A stretch of DNA of 26,156 nt from a virus. Its lineage: Duplodnaviria > Heunggongvirae > Uroviricota > Caudoviricetes. The notes beneath the pieces were generated by a model, which was given only the letters and a program-made list of their open reading frames with translations, did no database searches and was not told where the DNA came from. This document shows positions 1-12,544 of the stretch, piece after piece. Where the stretch lies: the IMG/VR virus record IMGVR_UViG_2585427783_000007. The stretch is one strand, 5' to 3'. Position 1 is the first letter of the stretch. Each line of letters opens with the position of its first letter. The translations under genes were made by a program, and so were the position numbers.

Positions 1-993
1 CTAATCGATGGACAGTTTATGGACACTTTCAGCCAGCGGATTAAAGTTGATCGCGTCCAGTAAAAAGTCCGGCGAAAAATGAGCGTACGTCATTGTTTGC
101 TGAATCGTTGCGTGCCCCAGGATTCGTTGCAACGTAACAATATTTCCGCCATTCATCATAAAGTGTGTGGCAAATGTATGACGCATGACATGCGTAGCCT
201 GCCCCTTCGGCAAATCCGGTTTCACCTCCTGAAGAATCTCCCGGAACTTCAGATAATCAACCTGATACAATAACCCCGTTCGACGGGTTTTAATCAGAGG
301 CACGACCGAATCCGCCACAGGAACCGAACGGGATTTTCCGTTTTTGGTGTTAAAGAACGTCACCCGGTTGCCAACGATATGCTCTCCACGTAGTTCCGAT
401 GCTTCACTCCATCGGGCACCAGTAGAAAGACACAGAATGGCAACACGACGCGCATCACCCTCCAGTCGCTCAAGAAGCCGTTCAATCTCATCATCAGAAA
501 GAAAGGCCATCTCTGTGTTCTGAACTTTCAGTTTTCGTATACCGCGTACAGGGTTCGCGTTGTGAAAGACCTCAGCTTCAATCAGCACCGTGAACATGGT
601 AGACAGTACGCATAAGTCACGATTAATACTGGACGGCATTAATCCGGCCTGTAATTTCTCTGACCGATATTCAAGCATAAATTTTCGCGTCATCTGACTG
701 GCGCGAGGATCTCCCATTTCACGAACAACCTTCCCTAGCCTAACCCTGTAGCTATCCCCGTAAGCCTGATTACGACCATCAAGCATCCACCACGCATCAA
801 GCAGCTCTGATAATCGCCGCTGATCAGCTGGCTTAGCCTGCCATGGCTTGTCATGAAAGTTCTGTAACACATACTTCTCAAACTCCTGAGCCTTTGATTT
901 CAGGGCAAAGATTTTTCGAATCCGCTTTCCTTCCGCCCCCTGCGGTCTGACATCGACCTGATAACGTCCGTCTTTGAGTTGCTTAATCGACAT
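1..993 (-). CDS. int: Tyrosine integrase (P2 Int-like)
   Basis: ORF table entry 1..1008 begins at a TTG; the first ATG is at 993 (MSIKQLKDGRY...) preceded by GGAGG. C-terminal tyrosine-recombinase motifs (VMRHTFATHF, LGHATIQQTMTYAHF) and end-to-end resemblance to P2 Int as I recall it. Confidence 0.9.
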   Translation of the reverse strand: MSIKQLKDGRYQVDVRPQGAEGKRIRKIFALKSKAQEFEKYVLQNFHDKPWQAKPADQRRLSELLDAWWMLDGRNQAYGDSYRVRLGKVVREMGDPRASQMTRKFMLEYRSEKLQAGLMPSSINRDLCVLSTMFTVLIEAEVFHNANPVRGIRKLKVQNTEMAFLSDDEIERLLERLEGDARRVAILCLSTGARWSEASELRGEHIVGNRVTFFNTKNGKSRSVPVADSVVPLIKTRRTGLLYQVDYLKFREILQEVKPDLPKGQATHVMRHTFATHFMMNGGNIVTLQRILGHATIQQTMTYAHFSPDFLLDAINFNPLAESVHKLSID

Positions 994-1062
994 GATTAGC
1001 CCCTCCAACGGATAAATTAACTAAACACTCCTTGCGAGATGTAATTCGCTCAATGTGTAGAG

Positions 1063-1404
1063 TCAGCCAACATTGCGGCCTGATCGGGGTGATTTTTGGG
1101 TAATGCCGATTGAAACCTGATCGCCCTCCGACTGAATAGATCCATCAAGAGAGAGAGCCGGAGCAATCTGCCCGGCGACAGGTAGCGTCTTATCTTTTAT
1201 TAGCCACAGCATGTATTTTTCAAAGCGATCGACTTGCAGAACCGCCTCAACGATTTTTGCTCTAGCGTTCTTTTGCCCCGATTCGTAATTCCTTATGGTT
1301 GCCAAAGACAACCCAGTAATATCCGCAAACTGCTTTTGTGTTAACCCTTCCGCCTTACGTATCTGACGTAACTTTTTTGCGTAGTCTATTGACAAGATAA
1401 CCAT
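1063..1404 (-). CDS. C: Immunity repressor (P2 C-like)
   Basis: ORF table entry 1063..1458 begins at TTG; the ATG at 1404 gives 113 aa (MVILSIDYAKKLRQIRKAEGLTQKQFADITGLS...). HTH-like N-terminus and a GQIAPAL motif that I recall from the P2 C repressor; divergent from the cox-like gene. Confidence 0.75.
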   Translation of the reverse strand: MVILSIDYAKKLRQIRKAEGLTQKQFADITGLSLATIRNYESGQKNARAKIVEAVLQVDRFEKYMLWLIKDKTLPVAGQIAPALSLDGSIQSEGDQVSIGITQKSPRSGRNVG

Positions 1405-1449
1405 TTGAGTATTAACCTCTCGCACAAAGATAACCTTTTGGTTATCTTT
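1389..1449. promoter_or_regulatory. Lysogeny/lysis switch region: TTGACA hexamer plus three AAGATAACC operator half-sites
   Basis: TTGACA at 1389-1394 on the plus strand; AAGATAACC at 1394-1402; perfect palindrome AAAGATAACC-TTTT-GGTTATCTTT at 1426-1449, between the divergent C and cox-like starts. No convincing -10 was identified. Confidence 0.45.
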
Positions 1450-1508
1450 ACAAGCCAAAACAAACCATCACAAGGCGCGACAAGCGCACCAACGCAAGAG
1501 GATAACAA

Positions 1509-2030
1509 ATGCGGGACTTCATTGCCGATAAAGAGTTATCTGACCACCAACCACTTCAGGAAAGTGACGCACTCAGCGGATCCATTGATGCCGCCAACGA
1601 CGACGAGCACGAAGAAAACAAGAAAAAGCGTTCCTACAAAAAAGGAGCGACTTTGCGGCTGGATGGTCCGATCGCCGGGCTTTGCTCTCTGGAAAAAGGC
1701 GCGGCATATATTGGGCTAACAAAATCTGCACTGCGCGTAGCCATTCATCGCGGTCAAATGCCGGGACACAAGACGCGCACAAACCCGGAAGATGAAAACT
1801 CAGACGGAGTATGGTGGTTTAACGCCAAAGAGTGGGACAAGTTGGCTGATGAGCTACCAGAGCACGAGCCCCCAGAATGGCACAACTGGAAAAGTTACTG
1901 GACGTATGACCGCCAGAAAAGGAAGTTCTCTCCAGCTAATAAAGAAGACTGCCAGACCATTAACGGTAAGCGAGTTTATACAGGCAGAAGCTCAAAACTG
2001 GACCAACTCAGAAACAACAGAGGCAACTAA
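1509..2030 (+). CDS. Cox/Apl-like excisionase-regulator with an acidic N-terminal extension (173 aa)
   Basis: ATG at 1509 with AAGAGGA 6 nt upstream; first gene of the rightward operon. Central segment (LTKSALRVAIHRGQMPG...DGVWWFNAKEWDKL) resembles the HTH and wing of P2 Cox as recalled; the first ~60 aa are acidic and have no P2 counterpart. Confidence 0.5.
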   Translation: MRDFIADKELSDHQPLQESDALSGSIDAANDDEHEENKKKRSYKKGATLRLDGPIAGLCSLEKGAAYIGLTKSALRVAIHRGQMPGHKTRTNPEDENSDGVWWFNAKEWDKLADELPEHEPPEWHNWKSYWTYDRQKRKFSPANKEDCQTINGKRVYTGRSSKLDQLRNNRGN

Positions 2031-2034
2031 TCGT

Positions 2035-2457
2035 ATGAAAACAAACACGTCAGATTTCACAATAACTATTTCAAAAAATGACCAAGCATTAATTGATAAC
2101 CTGAAATACCTTGCGGAAAAACATAATAACGGACGAATTGCAATTAATTTACGACACATCACAGGAGTAACAATTGTAACCAGTTACTGGCATCTATATC
2201 TAATCGCTAAATCAGTACTTGAAAACAAAGATTCTGTTGTCAATGGAAGAGATATAGATACTCTTCCTGCACAAATCAAACCGATAGCCTATCAATTGCG
2301 TAATCGTTTTAAAAATGAAGGTGGGATTATATTTGACTTTCCCGCAGCTGTAGCCGTGAGCTTCTCTCGGGGGGATATACTTCACTCATTTCGTTTTGCT
2401 CTATCAGGTGACGAGACATTATGGCAGCTAGAAGATGCCGGGAGCAGCCCGGCATAA
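2035..2457 (+). CDS. Hypothetical protein (140 aa), AT-rich cargo gene
   Basis: ATG at 2035, 5 nt after the cox-like stop, in frame within table ORF 1792..2457. The first ~300 nt look about one-third GC by eye, against roughly half for the window. No family recognised. Confidence 0.5.
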   Translation: MKTNTSDFTITISKNDQALIDNLKYLAEKHNNGRIAINLRHITGVTIVTSYWHLYLIAKSVLENKDSVVNGRDIDTLPAQIKPIAYQLRNRFKNEGGIIFDFPAAVAVSFSRGDILHSFRFALSGDETLWQLEDAGSSPA

Positions 2458-2463
2458 ATCAAA

Positions 2464-2655
2464 TTAAAAATCAACCAGTTGTGTGACAGGTGGGTATTTA
2501 CGCTGAATTTTGTCAGTTACTAACGCCAGTAATATATGAATCTCTGTGTTTAATGCGTCTTTATCACCCGTCGTTTTTACCCTGGGAGGGTTAATGTTAT
2601 CCAGAGCAGCACTAAGTTCACTCAACAAATTAACAACTTTTTTATCTTCTGACAT
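2464..2655 (-). CDS. Hypothetical small protein (63 aa), convergent on the preceding gene
   Basis: ATG at 2655 with AAGAGG 5-6 nt upstream on the minus strand; AT-rich; stop codons of the two convergent genes are 6 bp apart. Confidence 0.5.
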   Translation of the reverse strand: MSEDKKVVNLLSELSAALDNINPPRVKTTGDKDALNTEIHILLALVTDKIQRKYPPVTQLVDF

Positions 2656-2792
2656 GAAAACCTCTTAACAATTTAATTAAACATAAGCCAGGACCTGAAC
2701 CGGCCAGTCCAAGTCCTAGACACACAAAAAAAATACCACAAATCAATACAAGGTGACACGAGTACACCTTACCGAAGGTACAGAGTTTTAAT

Positions 2793-5092: not shown

Positions 5093-5209
5093 GAAACCAG
5101 AACATGCACACACAAAAAAACCGCTTGCCATGCCGCAATCAGTCAGGTTACATTTCCGCTGCACCTCATAAAACGGGTGCCGGGATTGGAACCCCGCTGA
5201 CTATGCACG

Positions 5210-5235
5210 CGCACAACCGCGCCAGCGGTTTTTTT
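5210..5235 (+). terminator. Hairpin plus T7 run (weak intrinsic-terminator-like element)
   Basis: CGCACAA-CCGC-GCCA-GCGG-TTTTTTT-GTGCG: inner 4-bp GC stem followed by seven T; outer 7-bp arms CGCACAA/TTGTGCG. Confidence 0.3.
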
Positions 5236-5290
5236 GTGCGTACCGTATCGCCACGTCTTTTTCGCGTCAGAATTATGGTGGGGCGTATGG

Positions 5291-5309
5291 GGCCGACTTC
5301 GGTCGGGCC
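5291..5309 (+). other. Stable GC-rich hairpin with a UUCG-type tetraloop
   Basis: GGCCGAC-TTCG-GTCGGGCC, within a 322-bp GC-rich non-coding block. Confidence 0.35.
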
Positions 5310-5346
5310 GGATTCGTGCGTAGCCGGTAGTTCCAACCCTGTACGT

Positions 5347-5387
5347 CTCACCACCCCGAGCTTGGAACCTCTGGATGGTGAGTTTTT
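5347..5387 (+). terminator. Stem (CTCACCA/TGGTGAG) with large loop followed by T5 run
   Basis: 7-bp arms at 5347-5353 and 5376-5382, then TTTTT at 5383-5387, just upstream of the RBS of the 5415 gene. Confidence 0.3.
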
Positions 5388-5414
5388 AAAACTTACTACG
5401 TACGAGGCCACCCC

Positions 5415-5645
5415 ATGGCAAACCGCAAACAACAGCGCGCATACGCTGCGCGTCGTCACATCCAGACTGAAATCAACCGCAGACTTTTCCGCGCATTCCG
5501 CGTCGCGCATATCATGCACATCAATATGCTGCATGAACGCAGTCACGCACTATCGAACAGCTATTCCGCCTCTGTTTTCAGCTATCTGGCAGATGATCTG
5601 CGCGAGCTTCAAAAGCTCATCCAGCAGCAAAACAAACTCCATTAA
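5415..5645 (+). CDS. Hypothetical small basic protein (76 aa)
   Basis: ATG at 5415 with GAGG 9 nt upstream; table ORF; arginine-rich N-terminus. Confidence 0.5.
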   Translation: MANRKQQRAYAARRHIQTEINRRLFRAFRVAHIMHINMLHERSHALSNSYSASVFSYLADDLRELQKLIQQQNKLH

Positions 5646-5717
5646 TTCCTGTTCCGGGCCTTTCCTGCACCTTGCGGCGGGAGGCCTTCGCACATCTGTA
5701 ACAAGAGGATTGCCGCA

Positions 5718-6083
5718 ATGATTCTCGCCAACGACTTTCTTGAATACCTGCTCAATACAGAACGTGATCTTGCCGCTCGCGTGCGTGATCGTTATGACAT
5801 GTACCTGAAATCCCTGCCTGTACCGCAGCTCGCTGACGGAAAGATTGTTATTGATGGTCGCTACATGATTGACAGCCACGAGGGAAATTACAGGCTTTAC
5901 CGCATTGAAGGTGGCACCCCGTCCGTTATTGGCATTTACCAGCGCCCATCCTCTGCAATCGTCGATGTGATTGCCGACAGCATCCGCATCACACATCGCC
6001 ATGCCGACACAGAAGACACCGTGCTGGAAATTCAGCGGCTGGCTACAGTCTGCCGCGACACCCTGAATGGCATGACGAAGTAA
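5718..6083 (+). CDS. Hypothetical early protein (121 aa) immediately upstream of A
   Basis: ATG at 5718 with AAGAGGA 8 nt upstream; stop 6 nt before the A start. Confidence 0.6.
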   Translation: MILANDFLEYLLNTERDLAARVRDRYDMYLKSLPVPQLADGKIVIDGRYMIDSHEGNYRLYRIEGGTPSVIGIYQRPSSAIVDVIADSIRITHRHADTEDTVLEIQRLATVCRDTLNGMTK

Positions 6084-6089
6084 ATCACT

Positions 6090-8912
6090 ATGACGGCAGA
6101 GTACCTCAGGGACTGGCAACAACCGCGCCACGCAGTGGGGCGTGAAGGAACGGGGATCCCCGCTCCTGAATCCGCGCTTTCCTCCTGGCTGGATGCCTAC
6201 CGGGCAGAGAACGAGCGCCGCCAGGAAATGGCTGATGCGGCGTTCTCAGCCACGCCGCTGGGCAACCTGATTAATAAAAGCCTGGACGCACAGGAAAAAC
6301 AGGACAAAACCATCACACTGGCAGGAGACGCCAGAAAACAGGCACGTGGCGCGGTGGATGAAGCCATGGCCTCGCTGCGCCTGCTGCCGTCCTATCTGCG
6401 CGATCCGCTTATTCGCCACCTCTCCTTCCTGCGCAAAAAACAGGAAGCCGATCGCCGGAAAGGCAAAAAGAGCTGGCAGGCGGAACGCTATGCACGCGGA
6501 ACCCTGCGCAAAATATTCGAACGTCTGGATAGCACTGACGGACGCTGGCTGACACCGGGTTATCGCTCCCTTGCCGGACGCGAACGCCTGGACGATTTGC
6601 TTTACCTGCCGCAGCTCAACAAACACCAGATACAGACGCTGGCCACCATGACGGCGGCGATGTTCAGCAGCACCTTCGAAAAACTCTGCGATGGCTTTGG
6701 CGCGACCGATGGCGAGCTGACCATGGATGTAACCCTGAAGGCGTATCAGATGCTGGCCCGCATGGCGTTACACCTGCACGCCATGCCTCCACATTATGAC
6801 GCACTGACAACAGACAAAGACCGGAGGAACGAACCGGACACGGAGCTGCTGCCGGGCGCAATCCTTCGCCTGACCTGTGCGGAATGGTGGAAACGCAAAC
6901 TGTGGCTGTTACGTTGCGAGTGGAGAGAAGAACAACTCCGCGCCGCCTGTCTGGTTTCCAGAAAAACATCACCCTATCTGAGCCAGGACGCGTTAAGCGA
7001 GTTTCGCGCACAGCGCGAGAAAACACGCGATTTCCTGAAAAGTTTCATGCTGGAAAATGAAGACGGGTTCACGATTGATCTCGAGACAGTGTATTACGCG
7101 GGAGTAAGTAACCCGGTTCACCGTAAGGCAGAAATGATGGCCACCATGAAGGGACTGGAACTTCTGGCCGAAGCCCGTGGCGACAAAGCGGTGTTTCTGA
7201 CTGTCACCTGCCCGTCAAAATACCACGCCACAACGGAGAACGGTCATCCGAATCCCAAATGGAACGGGGCCACAATGCGCGACTCCAGCGATTACCTGGT
7301 TAACACGTTTTTTGCGGCGGTCCGCAAAAAACTGAACCGCGACGGCCTGCGCTGGTATGGCATCCGCACGGTGGAGCCTCATCATGACGGCACCGTGCAC
7401 TGGCATATGATGGTCTTTGCACATCCGGAAGAAATCGACACCATTGTGTCCCATACCCGCGATATTGCCATTCAGGAAGACCGCCACGAGCTGGGCAATG
7501 ATATTACTCCGCGCTTTAAGGTGGAGTATGTCGACGGCTCAAAAGGCACGCCAACCAGCTACATCGCCACCTACATCGGAAAGAACCTGGACAGCCGCGC
7601 CGTGGATGGCATCGACCCGAAAACGGGCAAGCCACGCATGGACCACGAAACCGGAAAATCAATGGCCGAGAGCGTGGAGCGCGCCATCGGCTGGGCGCGC
7701 CTTCACCGGGTCCGTCAGTTCCAGTTCTTTGGCATCCCCTCCCGTCAGGTGTGGCGTGAACTGCGCCGCCTTGCCAGCCAGATGGCACGCAATCCGGAAG
7801 GCCCGCAACGGCTGAAAGATGATGCAATGGATGCGGTACTCGCTGCCGCCGATGCCGGGTGTTTTGCCACCTACATTGAAAAACAGGGTGGCGTGCTTGT
7901 TCCACGCAAGGACTACCTGATTCGCACCGCCTACGACCTCGCAGATGAGCTGAACGATTACGGCGAACAGAGCGTACAGATTTACGGGATCTGGTCACCA
8001 CTCATCGGGGAATCCTCCCGTGTGTGCACGCATCCGGATAACTGGAAGCTGGTAAGACGTAAACCGGAAGCGGAAGACAGCGCCCGCGAAAATGGTTTTG
8101 ACCTTCAGGACGGCCCTGCCGCCCCTTGGACTCGTGGCAATAACTGTCCCCGTGTACAGGAAACGGACAACAACGGGACAGAACAGCCGGAAGAACGGCC
8201 AGCACCGTGGCCGCAGCTTCCTGACGGCGTTGACGTGAACGAATGGATGCGCTCACTGAAACGGCACGAACGCCGGGCGCTGATGCGTTCGCTGCGTGAC
8301 AAACAGGCAAAAAACAGCAGTGATGAAATGCAGAGCTGGACACAGAGCCGCAAACAGCAGCGGCCTTTGCCTGATAACCACGAATTACTCGCTAAAGAAT
8401 GGCGGGAATCTGCCGAATCTCTCGGCCTGCATATCGGTGAACAGCAGATGCAGCACCTGTTACGGGGCGGCAGCCTGTACGTTGACGGCAGCATCATTGC
8501 ACCGCAGGGATTTGAAATTGTACGCAAACCGGATACCCGCCCGGACAGCCGAATCACGCAGCTCTGGCAGCGCCTGAGCCGTAATCACGGCGTAAGCAGC
8601 ACGGAGATCCGCCATAACCCGGTCGCCAGCTATCTGGAACAGCTGGGGGCATCAGACCCCGAAGCCGCCGCACGTCTGGCATCCACACTTCAGCAGGACC
8701 AGAACACCATGACCCCCCCCGTTACCGTGCTTTCTGACATGCTGCGCGCCATCCGCGACGCAGAGCACGCACAGAGAATCAGTGAAACCACTGAACGTGC
8801 CCGCCGCAAAGCAGACCTGCTGCGGGGTGGCCTGACCAGTGGAAACAAAAAACAGACAGAAACGGGATTCACAAATCCCGTAAATGAGCAAAAAACGCGC
8901 CGCGATATATGA
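6090..8912 (+). CDS. A: Rolling-circle replication initiator (P2 gpA-like), 940 aa with extended C-terminus
   Basis: HUH motif in EPHHDGTVHWHMMVF and paired-tyrosine motif YIATYIGKN; N-terminal and core resemblance to P2 gpA as recalled; about 180 aa longer than the ~760-aa P2 protein. Confidence 0.9.
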   Translation: MTAEYLRDWQQPRHAVGREGTGIPAPESALSSWLDAYRAENERRQEMADAAFSATPLGNLINKSLDAQEKQDKTITLAGDARKQARGAVDEAMASLRLLPSYLRDPLIRHLSFLRKKQEADRRKGKKSWQAERYARGTLRKIFERLDSTDGRWLTPGYRSLAGRERLDDLLYLPQLNKHQIQTLATMTAAMFSSTFEKLCDGFGATDGELTMDVTLKAYQMLARMALHLHAMPPHYDALTTDKDRRNEPDTELLPGAILRLTCAEWWKRKLWLLRCEWREEQLRAACLVSRKTSPYLSQDALSEFRAQREKTRDFLKSFMLENEDGFTIDLETVYYAGVSNPVHRKAEMMATMKGLELLAEARGDKAVFLTVTCPSKYHATTENGHPNPKWNGATMRDSSDYLVNTFFAAVRKKLNRDGLRWYGIRTVEPHHDGTVHWHMMVFAHPEEIDTIVSHTRDIAIQEDRHELGNDITPRFKVEYVDGSKGTPTSYIATYIGKNLDSRAVDGIDPKTGKPRMDHETGKSMAESVERAIGWARLHRVRQFQFFGIPSRQVWRELRRLASQMARNPEGPQRLKDDAMDAVLAAADAGCFATYIEKQGGVLVPRKDYLIRTAYDLADELNDYGEQSVQIYGIWSPLIGESSRVCTHPDNWKLVRRKPEAEDSARENGFDLQDGPAAPWTRGNNCPRVQETDNNGTEQPEERPAPWPQLPDGVDVNEWMRSLKRHERRALMRSLRDKQAKNSSDEMQSWTQSRKQQRPLPDNHELLAKEWRESAESLGLHIGEQQMQHLLRGGSLYVDGSIIAPQGFEIVRKPDTRPDSRITQLWQRLSRNHGVSSTEIRHNPVASYLEQLGASDPEAAARLASTLQQDQNTMTPPVTVLSDMLRAIRDAEHAQRISETTERARRKADLLRGGLTSGNKKQTETGFTNPVNEQKTRRDI

Positions 8913-8959
8913 AGCGCACACAAAACAGGCAAAAACGGGATTTCAGAATCCCGTAAACG
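8849..8959. repeat. Two 38-bp direct repeats (31/38 identical), each with an 8-bp perfect hairpin ACGGGATT-N4-AATCCCGT; candidate centromere or operator
   Basis: Unit 1 at 8849-8886 (inside the last codons of A), unit 2 at 8922-8959 (30 bp upstream of the parM ATG); mismatches cluster in the hairpin loops. Confidence 0.6.
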
Positions 8960-8988
8960 ATTAATTAATCAACATAAGGAAAAGCGAC

Positions 8989-9948
8989 ATGAAAATTTGT
9001 ATCGACGACGGCTCCACCAACATCAAGCTGGCATGGACTGAGAATGGCGAACGCCGCAACGCCATCAGCCCGAACAGCTTCAAGTCGGAATGGTCTGCGC
9101 CGTTCGGTGGCATGCAGCCCGCGAACTACATGCTTGATGGCGTGCGCTATGGTTTTGATCCGGTTAGCGATCGCTTTGTCCAGACGACCGACACGCAATA
9201 CCAGTACAGCGATGTGAATGTAATCGCCATTCATCACGCGCTGGTCAAATCAGGCATCACGCCACAGGAGGTGGATGTGGTTGTCACCCTGCCACTGAGC
9301 GAGTATTTCGACACAAACGCACAGCCGGACATGGCCAACATCAACCGCAAAAAAGCGAACGTTATGCGCCCGGTGGAGTACCAGAACGGCGAAGCATTCA
9401 CTATCCGTAACGTGCGGGTTATGCCTGAATCCATTCCGGCTGGCTTTAAAGCACTGGCTGACATGAGTCCGTTTGAATCCCTGCTGATTGTGGATTTAGG
9501 CGGAACCACGCTGGATGTGGCAAAGGTTCAGGGGCAACTGGCAGGTATCAGCCAGGTGTTTTGCGATCCACACGTAGGCGTCTCCCTGATGGCCGGTGCC
9601 GTGCTGTCGGTGATGGCCGCTAACGGTATGCGTACCAGTCACCACATCGCCAATACCATTATCGAACATCGCCATGATGAAGCCTGGTTGCGCCAACACA
9701 TCCACAATGACGCGCATTACGCCAGCCTGATGGCGGTTATTCGTGAAAAGGAAGAAACACTGAAACAACGCGTGATCCGCGCGCTGGCGGGTTTTTCGGG
9801 TTACGGGCGGGTGATGGTTGTCGGTGGCGGGGCGGAGATTGTGGCACCCGCTATCCGCGAAGCCTGCGGAGTTAATGCGACTTTCATCGCGGACGAGGTG
9901 CCACAGTTTGCTCTGGTTAATGGGCTGTACGCAATGGACAAGGAGTAA
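8989..9948 (+). CDS. parM: ParM/StbA-family actin-like segregation ATPase
   Basis: 319 aa; MKICIDDGSTNIKLAW..., ...LLIVDLGGTTLDV..., ...VMVVGGGAEI... are actin/ASKHA phosphate and adenosine motifs; co-linear resemblance over the whole length to plasmid R1 ParM as I recall it. AAGGA RBS 8 nt upstream. Confidence 0.85.
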   Translation: MKICIDDGSTNIKLAWTENGERRNAISPNSFKSEWSAPFGGMQPANYMLDGVRYGFDPVSDRFVQTTDTQYQYSDVNVIAIHHALVKSGITPQEVDVVVTLPLSEYFDTNAQPDMANINRKKANVMRPVEYQNGEAFTIRNVRVMPESIPAGFKALADMSPFESLLIVDLGGTTLDVAKVQGQLAGISQVFCDPHVGVSLMAGAVLSVMAANGMRTSHHIANTIIEHRHDEAWLRQHIHNDAHYASLMAVIREKEETLKQRVIRALAGFSGYGRVMVVGGGAEIVAPAIREACGVNATFIADEVPQFALVNGLYAMDKE

Positions 9949-9952
9949 ACCA

Positions 9953-10267
9953 ATGACGACACCAACCAGACGGATAAGTTTCTATCTGAAGCCAGTCGCC
10001 GTCAATAGTGAACGGGAGGCGTGTAATTACCTCGACAGCCTGCCAGCCTCTGAACGCAGCCGCGCGCAACGCGCGGCCTTTCTGGCCGGGCTGGCACTCA
10101 TAAAACGCGATCCTGCATTTGCCTATTGGTTGGCCGAATGGCCGGAAGAAGGAGCTGCGCCAGCCAAGAATAATATTCAGAGTAAATATGCCAGCACACC
10201 TGCCACCGGAAGCAATCACAGCACTAGCGAGATAAGAAAGAACATTCAGTCATTTTTCCCAGAGTGA
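9953..10267 (+). CDS. parR: ParR-like centromere-binding adaptor (104 aa)
   Basis: ATG at 9953 with AGGAG inside the parM 3' end; N-terminal RRISFYLKP...LDSLPASERSRAQRAAFLAGLAL matches the pattern of the R1 ParR ribbon-helix-helix region as recalled; follows parM as in R1. Confidence 0.7.
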   Translation: MTTPTRRISFYLKPVAVNSEREACNYLDSLPASERSRAQRAAFLAGLALIKRDPAFAYWLAEWPEEGAAPAKNNIQSKYASTPATGSNHSTSEIRKNIQSFFPE

Positions 10268-10286
10268 AAACAGGAGAGGAGCATCT

Positions 10287-10721
10287 ATGGCAACTATCCC
10301 CAAAAAATGGTTACAACGCAAAATTGCAGACCTTGAATCGTGTCGTGAAGACATCCCGTTTGGCCTTGATGAAAACGATCACAATATGTTAATCGCACTG
10401 AAAATCGCACTCACATCGCTGGAAGCAGAGCCAGTTATGTTCTGTATATCAGGACAAAATGTAGATTCAGAAGAACATGTATCAACCAGCAAAGCGGTTG
10501 TTGATGCCTGGGTTGAAGAATGGAATCAGGTTGACGGAAGTCCAGGCGAACCACTGTACAAAACTATGCCACTCTACTATCACGCTGCCTTGCCAGCGCC
10601 GGTAGTGCCGGATGAAATGTATTGGCAGGATGCGCCAGTTGAAGGCAGCAGCAAAGCGGCTGCATACGCTACAGGCTGGAACGCCTGCCGCGCCGCTATG
10701 CTTCATGGGAAAGGAGAGTGA
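10287..10721 (+). CDS. Hypothetical acidic protein (144 aa)
   Basis: ATG at 10287 with AGGAGAGGAG RBS; same operon as parMR; no family recognised. Confidence 0.6.
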   Translation: MATIPKKWLQRKIADLESCREDIPFGLDENDHNMLIALKIALTSLEAEPVMFCISGQNVDSEEHVSTSKAVVDAWVEEWNQVDGSPGEPLYKTMPLYYHAALPAPVVPDEMYWQDAPVEGSSKAAAYATGWNACRAAMLHGKGE

Positions 10722-10722
10722 T

Positions 10723-10986
10723 ATGGCAACTTTAACAAAAAAAGAACGGGCATGGTTGAACGAATTACAGGACGTTCTTGATCGCTGCCCATCACCGAAA
10801 AAAATTGGTTTTTACACCATTGGCGATAAAAGCATTTACCTGTATGACCTGCGCCGCATGGATGAAATCATGGAGGCTCTTGATAATCGTTCTTCGATGG
10901 ATTGGTGTGTTGCTGTCCATGATATGAATGCAGGGTTTGATGAAAAGATTTTGTTCCCCTCATCAGTTGAAAGCACAGCAGGATAA
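10723..10986 (+). CDS. Hypothetical acidic protein (87 aa)
   Basis: ATG at 10723, 1 nt after the upstream stop, with AAGGAG 6 nt upstream; last gene before a terminator. Confidence 0.6.
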   Translation: MATLTKKERAWLNELQDVLDRCPSPKKIGFYTIGDKSIYLYDLRRMDEIMEALDNRSSMDWCVAVHDMNAGFDEKILFPSSVESTAG

Positions 10987-11021
10987 GGACCCAGCAAATA
11001 TACACAACCTATAAAACACTA

Positions 11022-11048
11022 AAGCGCCTCAGGGGCGCTTTTTGTTTG
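11022..11048 (+). terminator. Intrinsic terminator ending the parM-parR-unknown operon
   Basis: AAGCGCC-TCAGG-GGCGCTT (7-bp stem) followed by TTTGTTTG, 35 bp after the last stop codon. Confidence 0.55.
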
Positions 11049-11497: not shown

Positions 11498-12544
11498 TCA
11501 GGATGTGGGCTGGGTGTCTAACAGTGCGTAAGGGTTAAAGCGGATCACCTCTTCGCCAAGCCAGTCATTGATGTGCTTCATGGCCTCCATGACAGGCATC
11601 AGCTCGTTAATTGCGTAAACCCGCGCGGCCTTCTCCACATCACCAAACGCACTTTTTTCGCCCGGCATCGCCCCCATCAGTTGCGGCGGAACGCGGTGCG
11701 CAGCCAGCACATCATCACGGGATGCCGCCTTAACATTCATGAACTCATCTTTTGCGGTGATCTGCTGGAACGGCAAAATTTGCACCCCCTCTTTGCCCCC
11801 GTTGGGCGCATGAATGAGCACGTTTTTAAATGCACCACCACCACGCGCACCCTGTAACGTTTCTTTCAGGGAGTCCATGCTTTCGCGGTTTACCTGCGCT
11901 GCACCGATGTAGATGATGCACCCGGCGTGGGATCCGTTGTCGTAGTACAGTTTTCTGAACATGTCCGCCGAATGAGAAAGGCTGGCCGAGAGTAATGCGC
12001 CAAGATATTCCGGCATGCCGTAGATTTCCTGGTTAATATCCGGATTCATCAGGTGGCACACTTTGCCAGGGCGAAACTGGAACGCGTCCTTGCCATCCTG
12101 CACATACCACCATGATTCAAGATCGCTTCCGCGTCGCATGTATTTCGCCAGGGCGTGCCGTAATTTAAGCGGTTCGCCGAGCATATTGCTACGAAGCTCA
12201 AGGAATGCGTTACCGAACACAAACCAGTCCAGCGCCAGCGCCGAGAAATCCTGCCGGGAAAGCAGCGGGTGCGGGATGTAGCAACCGAGTAATACATTGC
12301 GCTTAAAGTAAAGCGCAGACTGATGCCAGGACGTTTGCCGGGCAGCTCTTGCCAGACCGTACCAGTCCACCGGGGTTTCATACCACCGCCCGTTATCAGC
12401 ACAGTACATATTATCCAGCAGGTCATGCCCGGTCAGGCGATAAGGACCATCAAATGTGAATGCACTGAGCGATGATTCTTTCCTGAGCGCATCAGCGAGA
12501 TCAATGCGTGAACTCATGCGCACTTTTTTATTTTTTCTGCTCAT
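11498..12544 (-). CDS. Q: Portal protein (P2 gpQ-like), 348 aa
   Basis: Size and position next to cos and downstream of the terminase on the minus strand; its ATG overlaps the P stop (ATGA). Confidence 0.85.
   Translation of the reverse strand: MSRKNKKVRMSSRIDLADALRKESSLSAFTFDGPYRLTGHDLLDNMYCADNGRWYETPVDWYGLARAARQTSWHQSALYFKRNVLLGCYIPHPLLSRQDFSALALDWFVFGNAFLELRSNMLGEPLKLRHALAKYMRRGSDLESWWYVQDGKDAFQFRPGKVCHLMNPDINQEIYGMPEYLGALLSASLSHSADMFRKLYYDNGSHAGCIIYIGAAQVNRESMDSLKETLQGARGGGAFKNVLIHAPNGGKEGVQILPFQQITAKDEFMNVKAASRDDVLAAHRVPPQLMGAMPGEKSAFGDVEKAARVYAINELMPVMEAMKHINDWLGEEVIRFNPYALLDTQPTS

What the first reader, a model, noticed from the sequence alone, without database searches (positions are those of the whole stretch)
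8849..10267. Complete plasmid-type ParM/ParR actin-like partition cassette inside an integrative P2-family prophage
A ParM/StbA homologue, a ParR-like adaptor and upstream hairpin-containing repeats sit between replication gene A and the cos/portal region, where P2 carries tin/old. P2-family phages integrate with Int and are not expected to need a segregation machine. Possibilities: the element can persist episomally as a phage-plasmid; the cassette positions replicating phage DNA; or it acts as an exclusion module through centromere incompatibility with resident ParMRC plasmids.
Basis: partly seen in the sequence, partly recalled or inferred. Interest (0 to 1): 0.8.

Follow-up and report, generated by a model that had tools for sequence, protein, structure and literature searches.

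The report
ParM/ParR partition genes in P88-like prophage
The window carries intact actin-like DNA-segregation genes (ParM and ParR) next to the replication gene of an integrating P2-family prophage, but this module is common in E. coli, already annotated and noted in the literature, and only its function is still unknown.

Summary
ORF 8989-9948 is a full-length ParM. ORF 9953-10267 is a ParR/StbB-type adaptor. Two 43-nt repeats lie just upstream, each holding an 8-4-8 palindrome.

It is not new. The window is a P88-like (Xuanwuvirus, P2-family) prophage. The cassette occurs in 1304 of 5426 complete E. coli genomes and is annotated by RefSeq. Two papers already note it and suggest an episomal state.

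What I add:
- The cassette belongs to the conserved block with replication gene A, on the same strand, 76 bp downstream. The variable P2-type hotspot starts only inside or after parR.
- ParM is under strong purifying selection.
- ParM relatives at 54-62% identity sit at the same position in P2-like prophages of Plesiomonas, Hafnia, Serratia and Enterobacter, so the association is old.
- The centromere-like site is minimal: two GGG-N10-CCC sites 72-73 bp apart, unlike plasmid iteron arrays.
- Copies are chromosomal 1442 times against 2 on plasmids, no more episomal than P2-type phages.

Best reading: it is expressed with the early replication genes and acts on circular phage DNA, as AlpAC does in prophage CGP3. 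This is inferred, not shown.

The parts
1..1008 (-). Tyrosine integrase (context: shows the element integrates)
   Evidence: Pfam Int_N E 1e-27 and Phage_integrase E 1.1e-18.
1063..1458 (-). HTH repressor (C-like), divergent from the early genes
   Evidence: Pfam HTH_3 E 3.8e-11. Its position matches P2 C.
1509..2030 (+). Cox-like protein, first gene of the rightward early block
   Evidence: Pfam Phage_Cox E 1.9e-07.
6090..8912 (+). Replication endonuclease gpA (940 aa)
   Evidence: Pfam Phage_GPA E 4.9e-131. About 31% identical to P2 A over P2 residues 42-687.
8124..8147 (+). Putative ori nick region inside gene A, by similarity to the P2 ori (inferred)
   Evidence: The P2 ori nick region matches window 8118-8147 at 83% over 30 nt, E 0.002.
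8845..8887 (.). Repeat unit 1 with palindrome 8862-8881 (candidate ParR site 1), inside the 3' end of gene A
   Evidence: The GGG-N10-CCC core is conserved in Plesiomonas and Hafnia prophages.
8918..8960 (.). Repeat unit 2 with palindrome 8935-8954 (candidate ParR site 2), intergenic
   Evidence: 97% mean identity across six P88-like phages. The core is conserved in distant relatives.
8961..8972 (+). AT-rich ATTAATCAA element between site 2 and the parM ribosome-binding site; function unknown
   Evidence: Conserved in the window, Plesiomonas and Hafnia loci.
8989..9948 (+). parM, actin-like segregation ATPase (319 aa)
   Evidence: dN/dS is 0.00-0.19 among P88-like phages.
9953..10267 (+). parR/stbB-type adaptor (104 aa), a rare allele
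   Evidence: The N-terminal 14 aa and the C-terminal FPE tip (plus an invariant Asn-Ile five residues upstream) are invariant among phage alleles. This exact allele is covered at 80% or more in 63 genomes.
10287..10721 (+). Variable-region ORF (144 aa), unknown function
   Evidence: PHROG 5117/660, unknown function. No Pfam or PADLOC hit. This region differs between P88-like phages.
10723..10986 (+). Variable-region ORF (87 aa), unknown function
   Evidence: PHROG 1714, unknown function. No Pfam or PADLOC hit.
11021..11041 (.). Bidirectional terminator-like hairpin that closes the rightward block
   Evidence: 8-9 pairs with 5 G-C pairs, T-runs on both strands.
11498..12544 (-). Portal gene (context: right border of the gpA-to-portal interval)
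   Evidence: ORF; the related record annotates a phage portal protein.

Best explanation
A functional type II (ParM/ParR) DNA-segregation module that is a long-standing core component of the P88-like lineage of integrating P2-family phages.

Proposed mechanism:
1. It is transcribed as the tail of the rightward early/replication block (cox ... A - parM - parR), so it is made when the phage genome is a free, replicating circle. That is after infection or induction, not in the repressed integrated prophage.
2. ParR dimers bind the two GGG-N10-CCC sites about 0.75 kb downstream of the putative ori.
3. ParM-ATP filaments capture these complexes through the conserved ParR C-terminal tip. They push or position sister circles apart.
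4. This would promote efficient replication and packaging, or distribute unintegrated genomes to both daughter cells before integration.

This is how AlpAC of the integrated Corynebacterium prophage CGP3 works.

Shown here: homology, intact motifs, purifying selection, operon-like arrangement, conserved cis sites, chromosomal location.
Inferred: timing of expression, ParR binding to the sites, filament-driven movement, and any benefit to the phage.
For: - Bona fide ParM with intact nucleotide-binding motifs aligned to R1 ParM: DDGSTNIKL, MPESIPAG, DLGGTTLD, GGGAE.
- ParR of family PF10784, whose C-terminal tip resembles that of plasmid ParRs (R-x-N...F-P-D/E; only the Asn is invariant).
- parM dN/dS is 0.00-0.19, at or below that of essential gene A at 0.11-0.20. 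The comparison includes phages isolated as virions.
- parMR follows A on the same strand after 76 bp. The scan found no sigma-70 consensus promoter and no + strand terminator-like site between the start of gene A (6090) and parM. A strong terminator follows only at 11021-11041. In the Hafnia relative the gap to the upstream ORF is only 44 bp.
- Every P88-like phage fetched keeps A-parM-parR while the DNA after parR varies.
- ParMs of 54-62% identity sit at the same position in P2-like prophages of four other genera. ParMs at 52% or lower sit in plasmid or conjugative contexts.
- The two GGG-N10-CCC sites, 72-73 bp apart, are conserved in E. coli, Plesiomonas and Hafnia, although the hairpin stem is not. 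The site type changes together with the ParR N-terminus in Serratia and Enterobacter.
- A P2-like ori motif lies at 8124-8147.
- Precedent: AlpAC is co-transcribed, early-induced, binds its own upstream region and is needed for efficient CGP3 replication (PMC4446434).
- Up to three copies per chromosome, including copies with the same ParR allele class, are tolerated. This is consistent with silence in the lysogen.
Against: - No expression data. A weak ParR-regulated promoter overlapping site 2 cannot be excluded by a consensus scan.
- Two sites are far fewer than the iteron arrays of studied ParMRC centromeres, so formation of a filament-capturing complex is uncertain.
- P2, 186 and most P2-like phages replicate well without such a module.
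- An isrK/C4 RNA module and a + strand terminator-like site at 5215-5230 lie upstream of A. Transcription of the A-parMR block may therefore be controlled in ways not captured by a simple early-operon model.
- No experiment on any P88-like ParMR was found in the literature searched.
Confidence: 0.45

Rival explanations
1. Facultative phage-plasmid. The cassette lets the phage persist as a stably inherited extrachromosomal prophage in some hosts or conditions, for example when no attB is available. It would then alternate between integrated and episomal states.
For: - This is the hypothesis already voiced by Rousset et al. 2022 and Pfeifer et al. 2021 for P88.
- One complete P88-like genome is deposited as a circular 34,461-bp 'plasmid', NZ_CP148288.
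- Two phage records came from genome assemblies as separate replicons.
- ParMRC is a plasmid-stability system, and phage-plasmid D6 uses a 48%-identical StbA.
- The P2-like Burkholderia phage KS14 is a plasmid prophage (PMC3091744).
Against: - In complete E. coli genomes the cassette is chromosomal in 1442 places and on plasmids in 2. P2-type Q-P genes give 2037 against 6. Fisher p = 0.48, so there is no enrichment.
- A P2-like phage without ParMR (pENTAS02) is also deposited as a circular plasmid, so such records are not specific to ParMR.
- The element keeps integrase, repressor and Cox. It has only the rolling-circle initiator gpA and no plasmid-type Rep among the ORFs scanned. KS14, by contrast, has RepB and ParA.
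- Replication needs gene A from the early block, which immunity normally represses (established P2 biology, my own knowledge).
Confidence: 0.2
2. Exclusion or competition module. ParR or ParM made by the resident prophage interferes with incoming DNA that carries matching centromeres. The targets would be related P88-like phages or ParMRC plasmids.
For: - The locus borders the known P2 anti-phage hotspot.
- The candidate sites and ParM are nearly identical across P88-like phages, so cross-recognition among relatives is possible.
- ParR alleles are unusually divergent, about 50% identical, against 98% for ParM.
Against: - No PADLOC defence-family hit.
- The cassette is conserved rather than variable cargo, and it is co-directional with A rather than arranged like tin/old.
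- The plasmid ParMs listed are at most 52% identical, apart from six plasmid records at 95-99% identity that were not all inspected (two of these were annotated and carry P88-like phage genes). Plasmid ParRs are 24-38% identical, with different N-terminal strands and entirely different T-rich iterons. Cross-incompatibility with resident plasmids is therefore unlikely.
- Prophages with the same ParR allele class co-reside, up to three per genome.
Confidence: 0.08
3. Host-directed 'fitness' or moron function, or a decaying relic of an old plasmid-phage recombination with no role for the phage.
For: The phiSM paper lists it as a putative fitness factor (PMC6456863). ParM clusters hold many truncated or fused variants in draft data.
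Against: - dN/dS is about 0.1 or lower.
- Full-length ORFs are present in five isolated phages and one circular plasmid record.
- Position is conserved across five genera down to 54% identity.
- The cis sites are conserved.
Confidence: 0.05

Closest known systems
ParMRC (StbA/StbB) of IncFII plasmid R1/NR1 and related enterobacterial plasmids, including pB171
   Same: - ParM aligns end to end with R1 ParM (E 8.6e-93) with its nucleotide-binding motifs intact.
- The order is cis site, then parM, then parR.
- ParR belongs to the same Pfam family (PF10784) and resembles the pB171 ParR N-terminal domain.
- The ParR C-terminal tip resembles that of plasmid ParRs.
   Different: - At most 52% ParM and 24-38% ParR identity to the plasmid relatives examined.
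- ParR is shorter: 104 aa against 112-140 aa.
- The cis region has two palindromic GGG-N10-CCC sites rather than arrays of direct iterons in a 270-410 bp promoter region.
- It is embedded in a phage early gene block on an integrating element.
AlpA/AlpC/alpS of the integrated Corynebacterium glutamicum prophage CGP3 (Donovan et al. 2015, PMC4446434)
   Same: An actin-like protein plus a co-transcribed DNA-binding adaptor that binds upstream of its own operon, in a chromosomally integrated prophage. It is proposed (there, shown) to act on excised circular phage DNA early after induction.
   Different: - Homology between ParM here and AlpC was not tested.
- The host phylum and phage type differ.
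- The function is shown experimentally for AlpAC and not for this cassette.
StbA/StbB of phage-plasmid D6 (P1-like)
   Same: It is the only other phage in the 50,697-record phage set with this ParM type (47.8% identity). Its depositors annotated it as similar to P88 StbA.
   Different: D6 is a 91-kb extrachromosomal plasmid prophage. Its upstream region carries TCTCAAA-type direct repeats.
Burkholderia phage KS14, a P2-like plasmid prophage (Lynch et al. 2010, PMC3091744)
   Same: P2-like virion genes combined with a partition function.
   Different: KS14 has a ParA-type partition gene and a RepB plasmid initiator, and is maintained as a plasmid. The window has gpA, a tyrosine integrase and ParM/ParR, and copies of this cassette are overwhelmingly chromosomal.
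P2 gpA-gpQ hotspot (tin/old locus; Rousset et al. 2022, PMC9122126)
   Same: The same interval between the replication gene and the portal gene. The paper counts the partition system among the contents of this interval, in about a fourth of E. coli P2-like phages.
   Different: parMR is conserved and co-directional with A, positionally like P2 orf91. The true variable part starts inside or after parR. There is no defence-family hit.

Membership tests
ParM (type II partition actin-like ATPase; Pfam PF06406 + PF21523) | Full-length match to both ParM domains above the curated cut-offs | tested here: met
   274.9 bits (cut-off 24.6) and 227.5 bits (cut-off 27.4), covering residues 1-316.
ParM (type II partition actin-like ATPase; Pfam PF06406 + PF21523) | Actin-fold nucleotide-binding motifs intact | tested here: met
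   DDGSTNIKL, MPESIPAG, DLGGTTLD and GGGAE are aligned and conserved against R1 ParM 1mwk.
ParM (type II partition actin-like ATPase; Pfam PF06406 + PF21523) | ATP-dependent, dynamically unstable filaments | not testable with these tools
   Needs biochemistry or imaging.
ParR/StbB adaptor (Pfam PF10784) | Family match above the cut-off, and a gene immediately downstream of parM | tested here: met
   88 bits against a cut-off of 25. The ATG lies 5 nt after the parM stop.
ParR/StbB adaptor (Pfam PF10784) | N-terminal ribbon-helix-helix DNA-binding domain as in pB171 ParR | tested here: inconclusive
   Sequence hit to 2jd3 at E 0.0044 over residues 6-61. No structure was predicted.
ParR/StbB adaptor (Pfam PF10784) | Conserved C-terminal tip that contacts ParM | tested here: met
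   The tip is similar in phage and plasmid homologues (R-x-N...F-P-D/E; only the Asn is invariant). The contact with ParM itself is inferred from established R1 work (my own knowledge).
Plasmid-type parC centromere | Array of several direct iterons upstream of parM, embedding the par promoter | tested here: not met
   Only two palindromic sites and a 76-bp gap. The scan found no sigma-70 consensus. Plasmid relatives have multi-iteron regions of 270-410 bp.
Plasmid-type parC centromere | Specific binding by the cognate ParR | not testable with these tools
   Indirect support only: the site type changes with the ParR N-terminus across lineages.
Phage-plasmid (P1, N15, D6, KS14 type) | Prophage resides on an extrachromosomal replicon | tested here: not met
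   1442 chromosomal against 2 plasmid places. This does not differ from P2-type phages at 2037 against 6, p = 0.48.
Phage-plasmid (P1, N15, D6, KS14 type) | Plasmid-type replication initiator | tested here: not met
   Only gpA (Phage_GPA) was found among the ORFs scanned. Small ORFs were not all scanned.
P2 hotspot cargo (tin/old-like anti-phage genes) | Variable presence among close relatives, own promoter, known defence family | tested here: not met
   parMR is conserved in all P88-like phages fetched, lies on the same strand as A, and has no PADLOC hit.
AlpAC-like prophage actin system | Actin-like protein, adaptor and upstream binding site in an integrated prophage | tested here: met
   The architecture is as described. 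This is a functional analogy only.
AlpAC-like prophage actin system | Early induction and a requirement for efficient phage DNA replication | not testable with these tools
   Needs transcriptomics and mutants.

The most novel reading that the evidence does not exclude
A ParM/ParR actin machine is a core, early-expressed component of a widespread lineage of integrating P2-family phages across Enterobacterales. It works on a minimal two-site centromere next to the rolling-circle origin to organise or distribute free circular phage genomes. That would make it a Gram-negative counterpart of AlpAC, possibly also allowing a transient episomal carrier state before integration.
Probability: 0.4. Interest if true: 0.55.

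Novelty: already known. Interest (0 to 1): 0.3.

Why it matters
About a quarter of complete E. coli genomes carry this module, yet nobody has shown what an actin-like segregation machine does for a phage that integrates.

If it positions replicating phage circles, it would extend the AlpAC paradigm to a tractable E. coli system with plaque-forming, inducible phages (P88, phiSM). It would also define a minimal two-site ParR centromere.

If it supports an episomal state, it would blur the line between integrating prophages and phage-plasmids in a very common phage group.

As a genome-scan finding it is ordinary: the genes are correctly annotated in public records and the question has already been raised in print.

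Tried and rejected
- The portal-terminase region of the window was tried as an 'all P2-like' control, but it reached almost only P88-type phages. I used P2's own Q-P genes instead.
- The genome-contig scan with ParM found only near-identical copies. The protein search was needed to find the 54-62% relatives.
- The P2 cos sequence gave no match in the window, so cos is not located.
- I could not test whether the strain carrying the circular record NZ_CP148288 also has an integrated copy. The record is not in the E. coli genome set.
- Monophyly of all phage ParMs is seen in the NJ tree but with only 30/100 bootstrap support. The E. coli + Hafnia + Plesiomonas subclade has 100/100. One or two acquisitions is therefore unresolved.
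- The ParR allele counts cannot show whether co-resident prophages prefer different alleles. They show only that same-class copies co-reside.
- The consensus scan gave no sigma-70 promoter upstream of parM. By eye only poor candidates exist, such as TTCAGA-17-TTAATC.
- RNA hairpin or terminator reading of the repeats: rejected as the conserved feature. The stems are not conserved in Plesiomonas and Hafnia (z about -1.5, against -4.4 to -5.4 in the window). Changes in P88 and 520873 are uncompensated. No Rfam family matches there.
- The Odegrip et al. 2006 paper on the P2 variable locus is not held.
- Structure prediction was not run, because the close PDB and Pfam matches made it unnecessary.

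Full report
**What is there**

The window is the left 26 kb of a P2-family prophage.
- A tyrosine integrase (1-1008, -), an HTH repressor (1063-1458, -) and a Cox-like gene (1509-2030, +) open the element.
- A rightward run of early genes ends in the replication endonuclease gpA (6090-8912; Phage_GPA E 4.9e-131).
- parM starts 76 bp after the gpA stop (8989-9948, 319 aa). It matches both Pfam ParM domains (E 2.7e-82 and 1.1e-67). It also matches the solved R1 ParM over its whole length (E 8.6e-93) with the nucleotide-binding motifs conserved.
- A 104-aa ORF starts 5 nt later (9953-10267). It belongs to Pfam PF10784, the StbB/ParR family (E 3.8e-25). It resembles the N-terminal DNA-binding domain of pB171 ParR (2jd3, E 0.0044).
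- Two ORFs of unknown function follow (10287-10721 and 10723-10986). They match only PHROGs of unknown function, with no Pfam or PADLOC hit.
- Next come a strong bidirectional terminator-like hairpin (11021-11041) and the leftward portal and terminase genes.

Upstream of parM are two 43-nt direct repeats, 73 bp apart. Each contains a perfect 8-4-8 palindrome (8862-8881 and 8935-8954). These are the only two such sites in the window, where 0.07 are expected by chance.

**What the element is, and how common**

The 8800-10300 stretch matches 14 phage records at 94-98% identity. These include P88, phiSM, 520873, 503458 and Chuche; those that carry an ICTV genus are classified as Xuanwuvirus, family Peduoviridae.

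It matches 1304 of 5426 complete E. coli genomes, in 1444 places, with RefSeq already naming both genes. An identical copy lies in a prophage next to chpS/ppa in strain BEC1-S17-ESBL-09. Outside the cassette, however, the window is only 88-97% identical to that prophage and has a different integrase and immunity module.

**What the literature says**

- Rousset et al. [quoted passage not shown]
- Pfeifer et al. 2021 flagged P88 itself as possibly having "episomal and integrative states" (PMC7969092).
- The phiSM paper merely lists the gene as a fitness factor, and the P88 paper does not discuss it.
- I found no functional study.

The finding and its leading hypothesis are therefore already in print. 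The function is not established.

**Position relative to the P2 hotspot**

In P2, tin and old lie on the opposite strand with their own promoter, and orf91 follows A on the same strand. Here parM and parR follow A on the same strand. The scan found no + strand terminator-like site between the start of gene A and parM, and no consensus sigma-70 promoter in the gap.

Across six P88-like phages the A-parM-parR order is invariant. The sequence between parR and the portal gene differs in every case. DNA homology breaks inside parR, at about window positions 10005-10150.

ParM is 95-99% identical among these phages, whereas ParR alleles are only about 50% identical. The first 14 residues and the C-terminal FPE tip, plus an invariant Asn-Ile five residues upstream, do not vary. 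The cassette thus belongs to the conserved replication block, and the variable hotspot begins at its 3' edge.

**Selection and age**

Pairwise dN/dS for parM is 0.00-0.19, at or below the 0.11-0.20 of essential gene A.

In the protein database the identity distribution has a gap between 91% or more and 62%. The next relatives are at 62% (Plesiomonas, Hafnia), 57-59% (Serratia) and 54% (Enterobacter ludwigii). All four that I examined lie in P2-like prophages in the order gpA, 0-2 small ORFs, ParM, PF10784 protein, variable genes, portal.

Three ParMs at 49-52% identity lie in plasmid or conjugative-element contexts. The plasmid ParMs listed are at most 52% identical. Six plasmid records do reach 95-99% identity; the two of these that were annotated (NZ_CP110658, NZ_CP148288) carry P88-like phage genes such as the replication endonuclease and portal/terminase.

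An NJ tree unites the phage-context ParMs, but with weak support (30/100). The E. coli + Hafnia + Plesiomonas subclade has 100/100. The association with P2-like phages is old, not a recent plasmid capture.

**The cis element**

- The palindromes are 97% conserved among P88-like phages, with uncompensated changes in the stems.
- In the Plesiomonas and Hafnia prophages the same arrangement recurs: two sites 72-73 bp apart. The upstream site lies in the end of the preceding ORF. The downstream site lies just before a conserved ATTAATCAA and the ribosome-binding site.
- Only GGG-N10-CCC is conserved there. The hairpin potential is lost. This points to a protein-binding site, not an RNA or DNA hairpin.
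- These three lineages share the ParR N-terminus TRR[I/V]SFYL[K/N]P. Serratia and Enterobacter ParRs start NRKISFYLKP and have a different, longer inverted repeat.
- The plasmid relatives and D6 have 270-410 bp upstream regions with multiple direct repeats, T-rich iterons in the two plasmids and TCTCAAA-type repeats in D6.

The phage site is therefore a plausible but minimal and atypical centromere, and "complete plasmid-type ParMRC" overstates it. A sequence resembling the P2 ori nick site lies at 8124-8147, about 0.75 kb upstream.

**Testing the phage-plasmid idea with genome data**

Cassette copies are chromosomal in 1442 places and on plasmids in 2. P2-type Q-P genes give 2037 and 6. The difference is not significant (p = 0.48).

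One complete P88-like genome is deposited as a 34.5-kb circular plasmid. So is a P2-like phage without ParMR, pENTAS02. The element has an integrase and no plasmid-type Rep among the ORFs scanned. KS14, the known P2-like plasmid prophage, has RepB and ParA instead. These data do not exclude a facultative episomal state, but they give it no support.

**Testing the incompatibility idea**

The phage sites and ParR are too different from those of the resident plasmid systems examined for cross-recognition to be likely. Prophages of the same ParR allele class co-reside, up to three per genome.

**Most likely mechanism**

The arrangement fits expression together with the replication genes. ParM/ParR would then act when the genome is a free circle, in one of two ways:
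- organising or dispersing replicating monomer circles during lytic growth;
- distributing unintegrated genomes before integration.

The validated precedent is AlpAC of the integrated prophage CGP3. It is early-induced, its adaptor binds upstream of its own operon, and it is required for efficient phage replication. Timing, binding and benefit are all inferred here.

One complication: an isrK/C4 RNA module and a + strand terminator-like site lie upstream of A, so control of this block may be more complex than simple read-through.

**Verdict**

The cassette is real, functional by every sequence criterion, and biologically unexplained. It is also standard, annotated content of a very common phage group, and its oddity has already been remarked on in the literature.

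Noticed in passing
window 5161-5235 (+) and 5271-5358 (+): Rfam gathering-level matches to isrK Hfq-binding RNA (67.4 bits) and C4 antisense RNA (79.8 bits) overlap the Ash-like ORF 5104-5721. The + strand terminator-like site at 5215-5230 coincides with the isrK end. This P1-immI-like RNA module sits upstream of gpA-parMR and may control that block.
   Followed up: no
window 9953-10267; L003, L004, L006-L008 parR: ParR alleles among P88-like phages are only about 50% identical, while the adjacent ParM is 98% identical and the upstream sites 97%. The recombination breakpoint lies inside parR. The exact window allele is rare: covered at 80% or more in 63 of 5426 genomes. The P88-type allele is in 661 genomes.
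   Followed up: partly
window 6090-8912: gpA is 940 aa against 761 aa in P2. The P2 A protein aligns only to about residues 77-744. A C-terminal extension of about 195 aa has no P2 counterpart, and its coding sequence ends in repeat 1.
   Followed up: no
window 8862-8881 and 8935-8954, - strand: Read on the - strand, both palindromes score as intrinsic-terminator-like sites (8-bp stem followed by TTTTGCCTGT or TTCTGTCTGT), although no - strand gene lies upstream of them.
   Followed up: partly
window 10287-10986: Two co-directional ORFs (144 and 87 aa) occupy the truly variable slot after parR. They match only PHROGs of unknown function (5117/660 and 1714), with no Pfam or PADLOC hits. Other P88-like phages carry unrelated genes here.
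   Followed up: partly
L012 (NC_015969.1, Enterobacter soli pENTAS02): A complete P2-like phage genome with integrase and gpA but no ParMR is deposited as a 32.6-kb circular plasmid.
   Followed up: no
L016 (NZ_JBQPOM010000071.1): A 97%-identical ParM lies on a 226-kb contig labelled Vagococcus sp. WN89Y, a Firmicute. This is probably contamination or a mislabelled assembly.
   Followed up: no
window 1-2785 against L001: The prophage with the identical parMR stretch (NZ_AP022298) has no megablast match to the window's integrase, repressor and cox region. It also carries an extra 2-kb DUF6645 gene in the late region. The same cassette therefore travels with different integration and immunity modules.
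   Followed up: no
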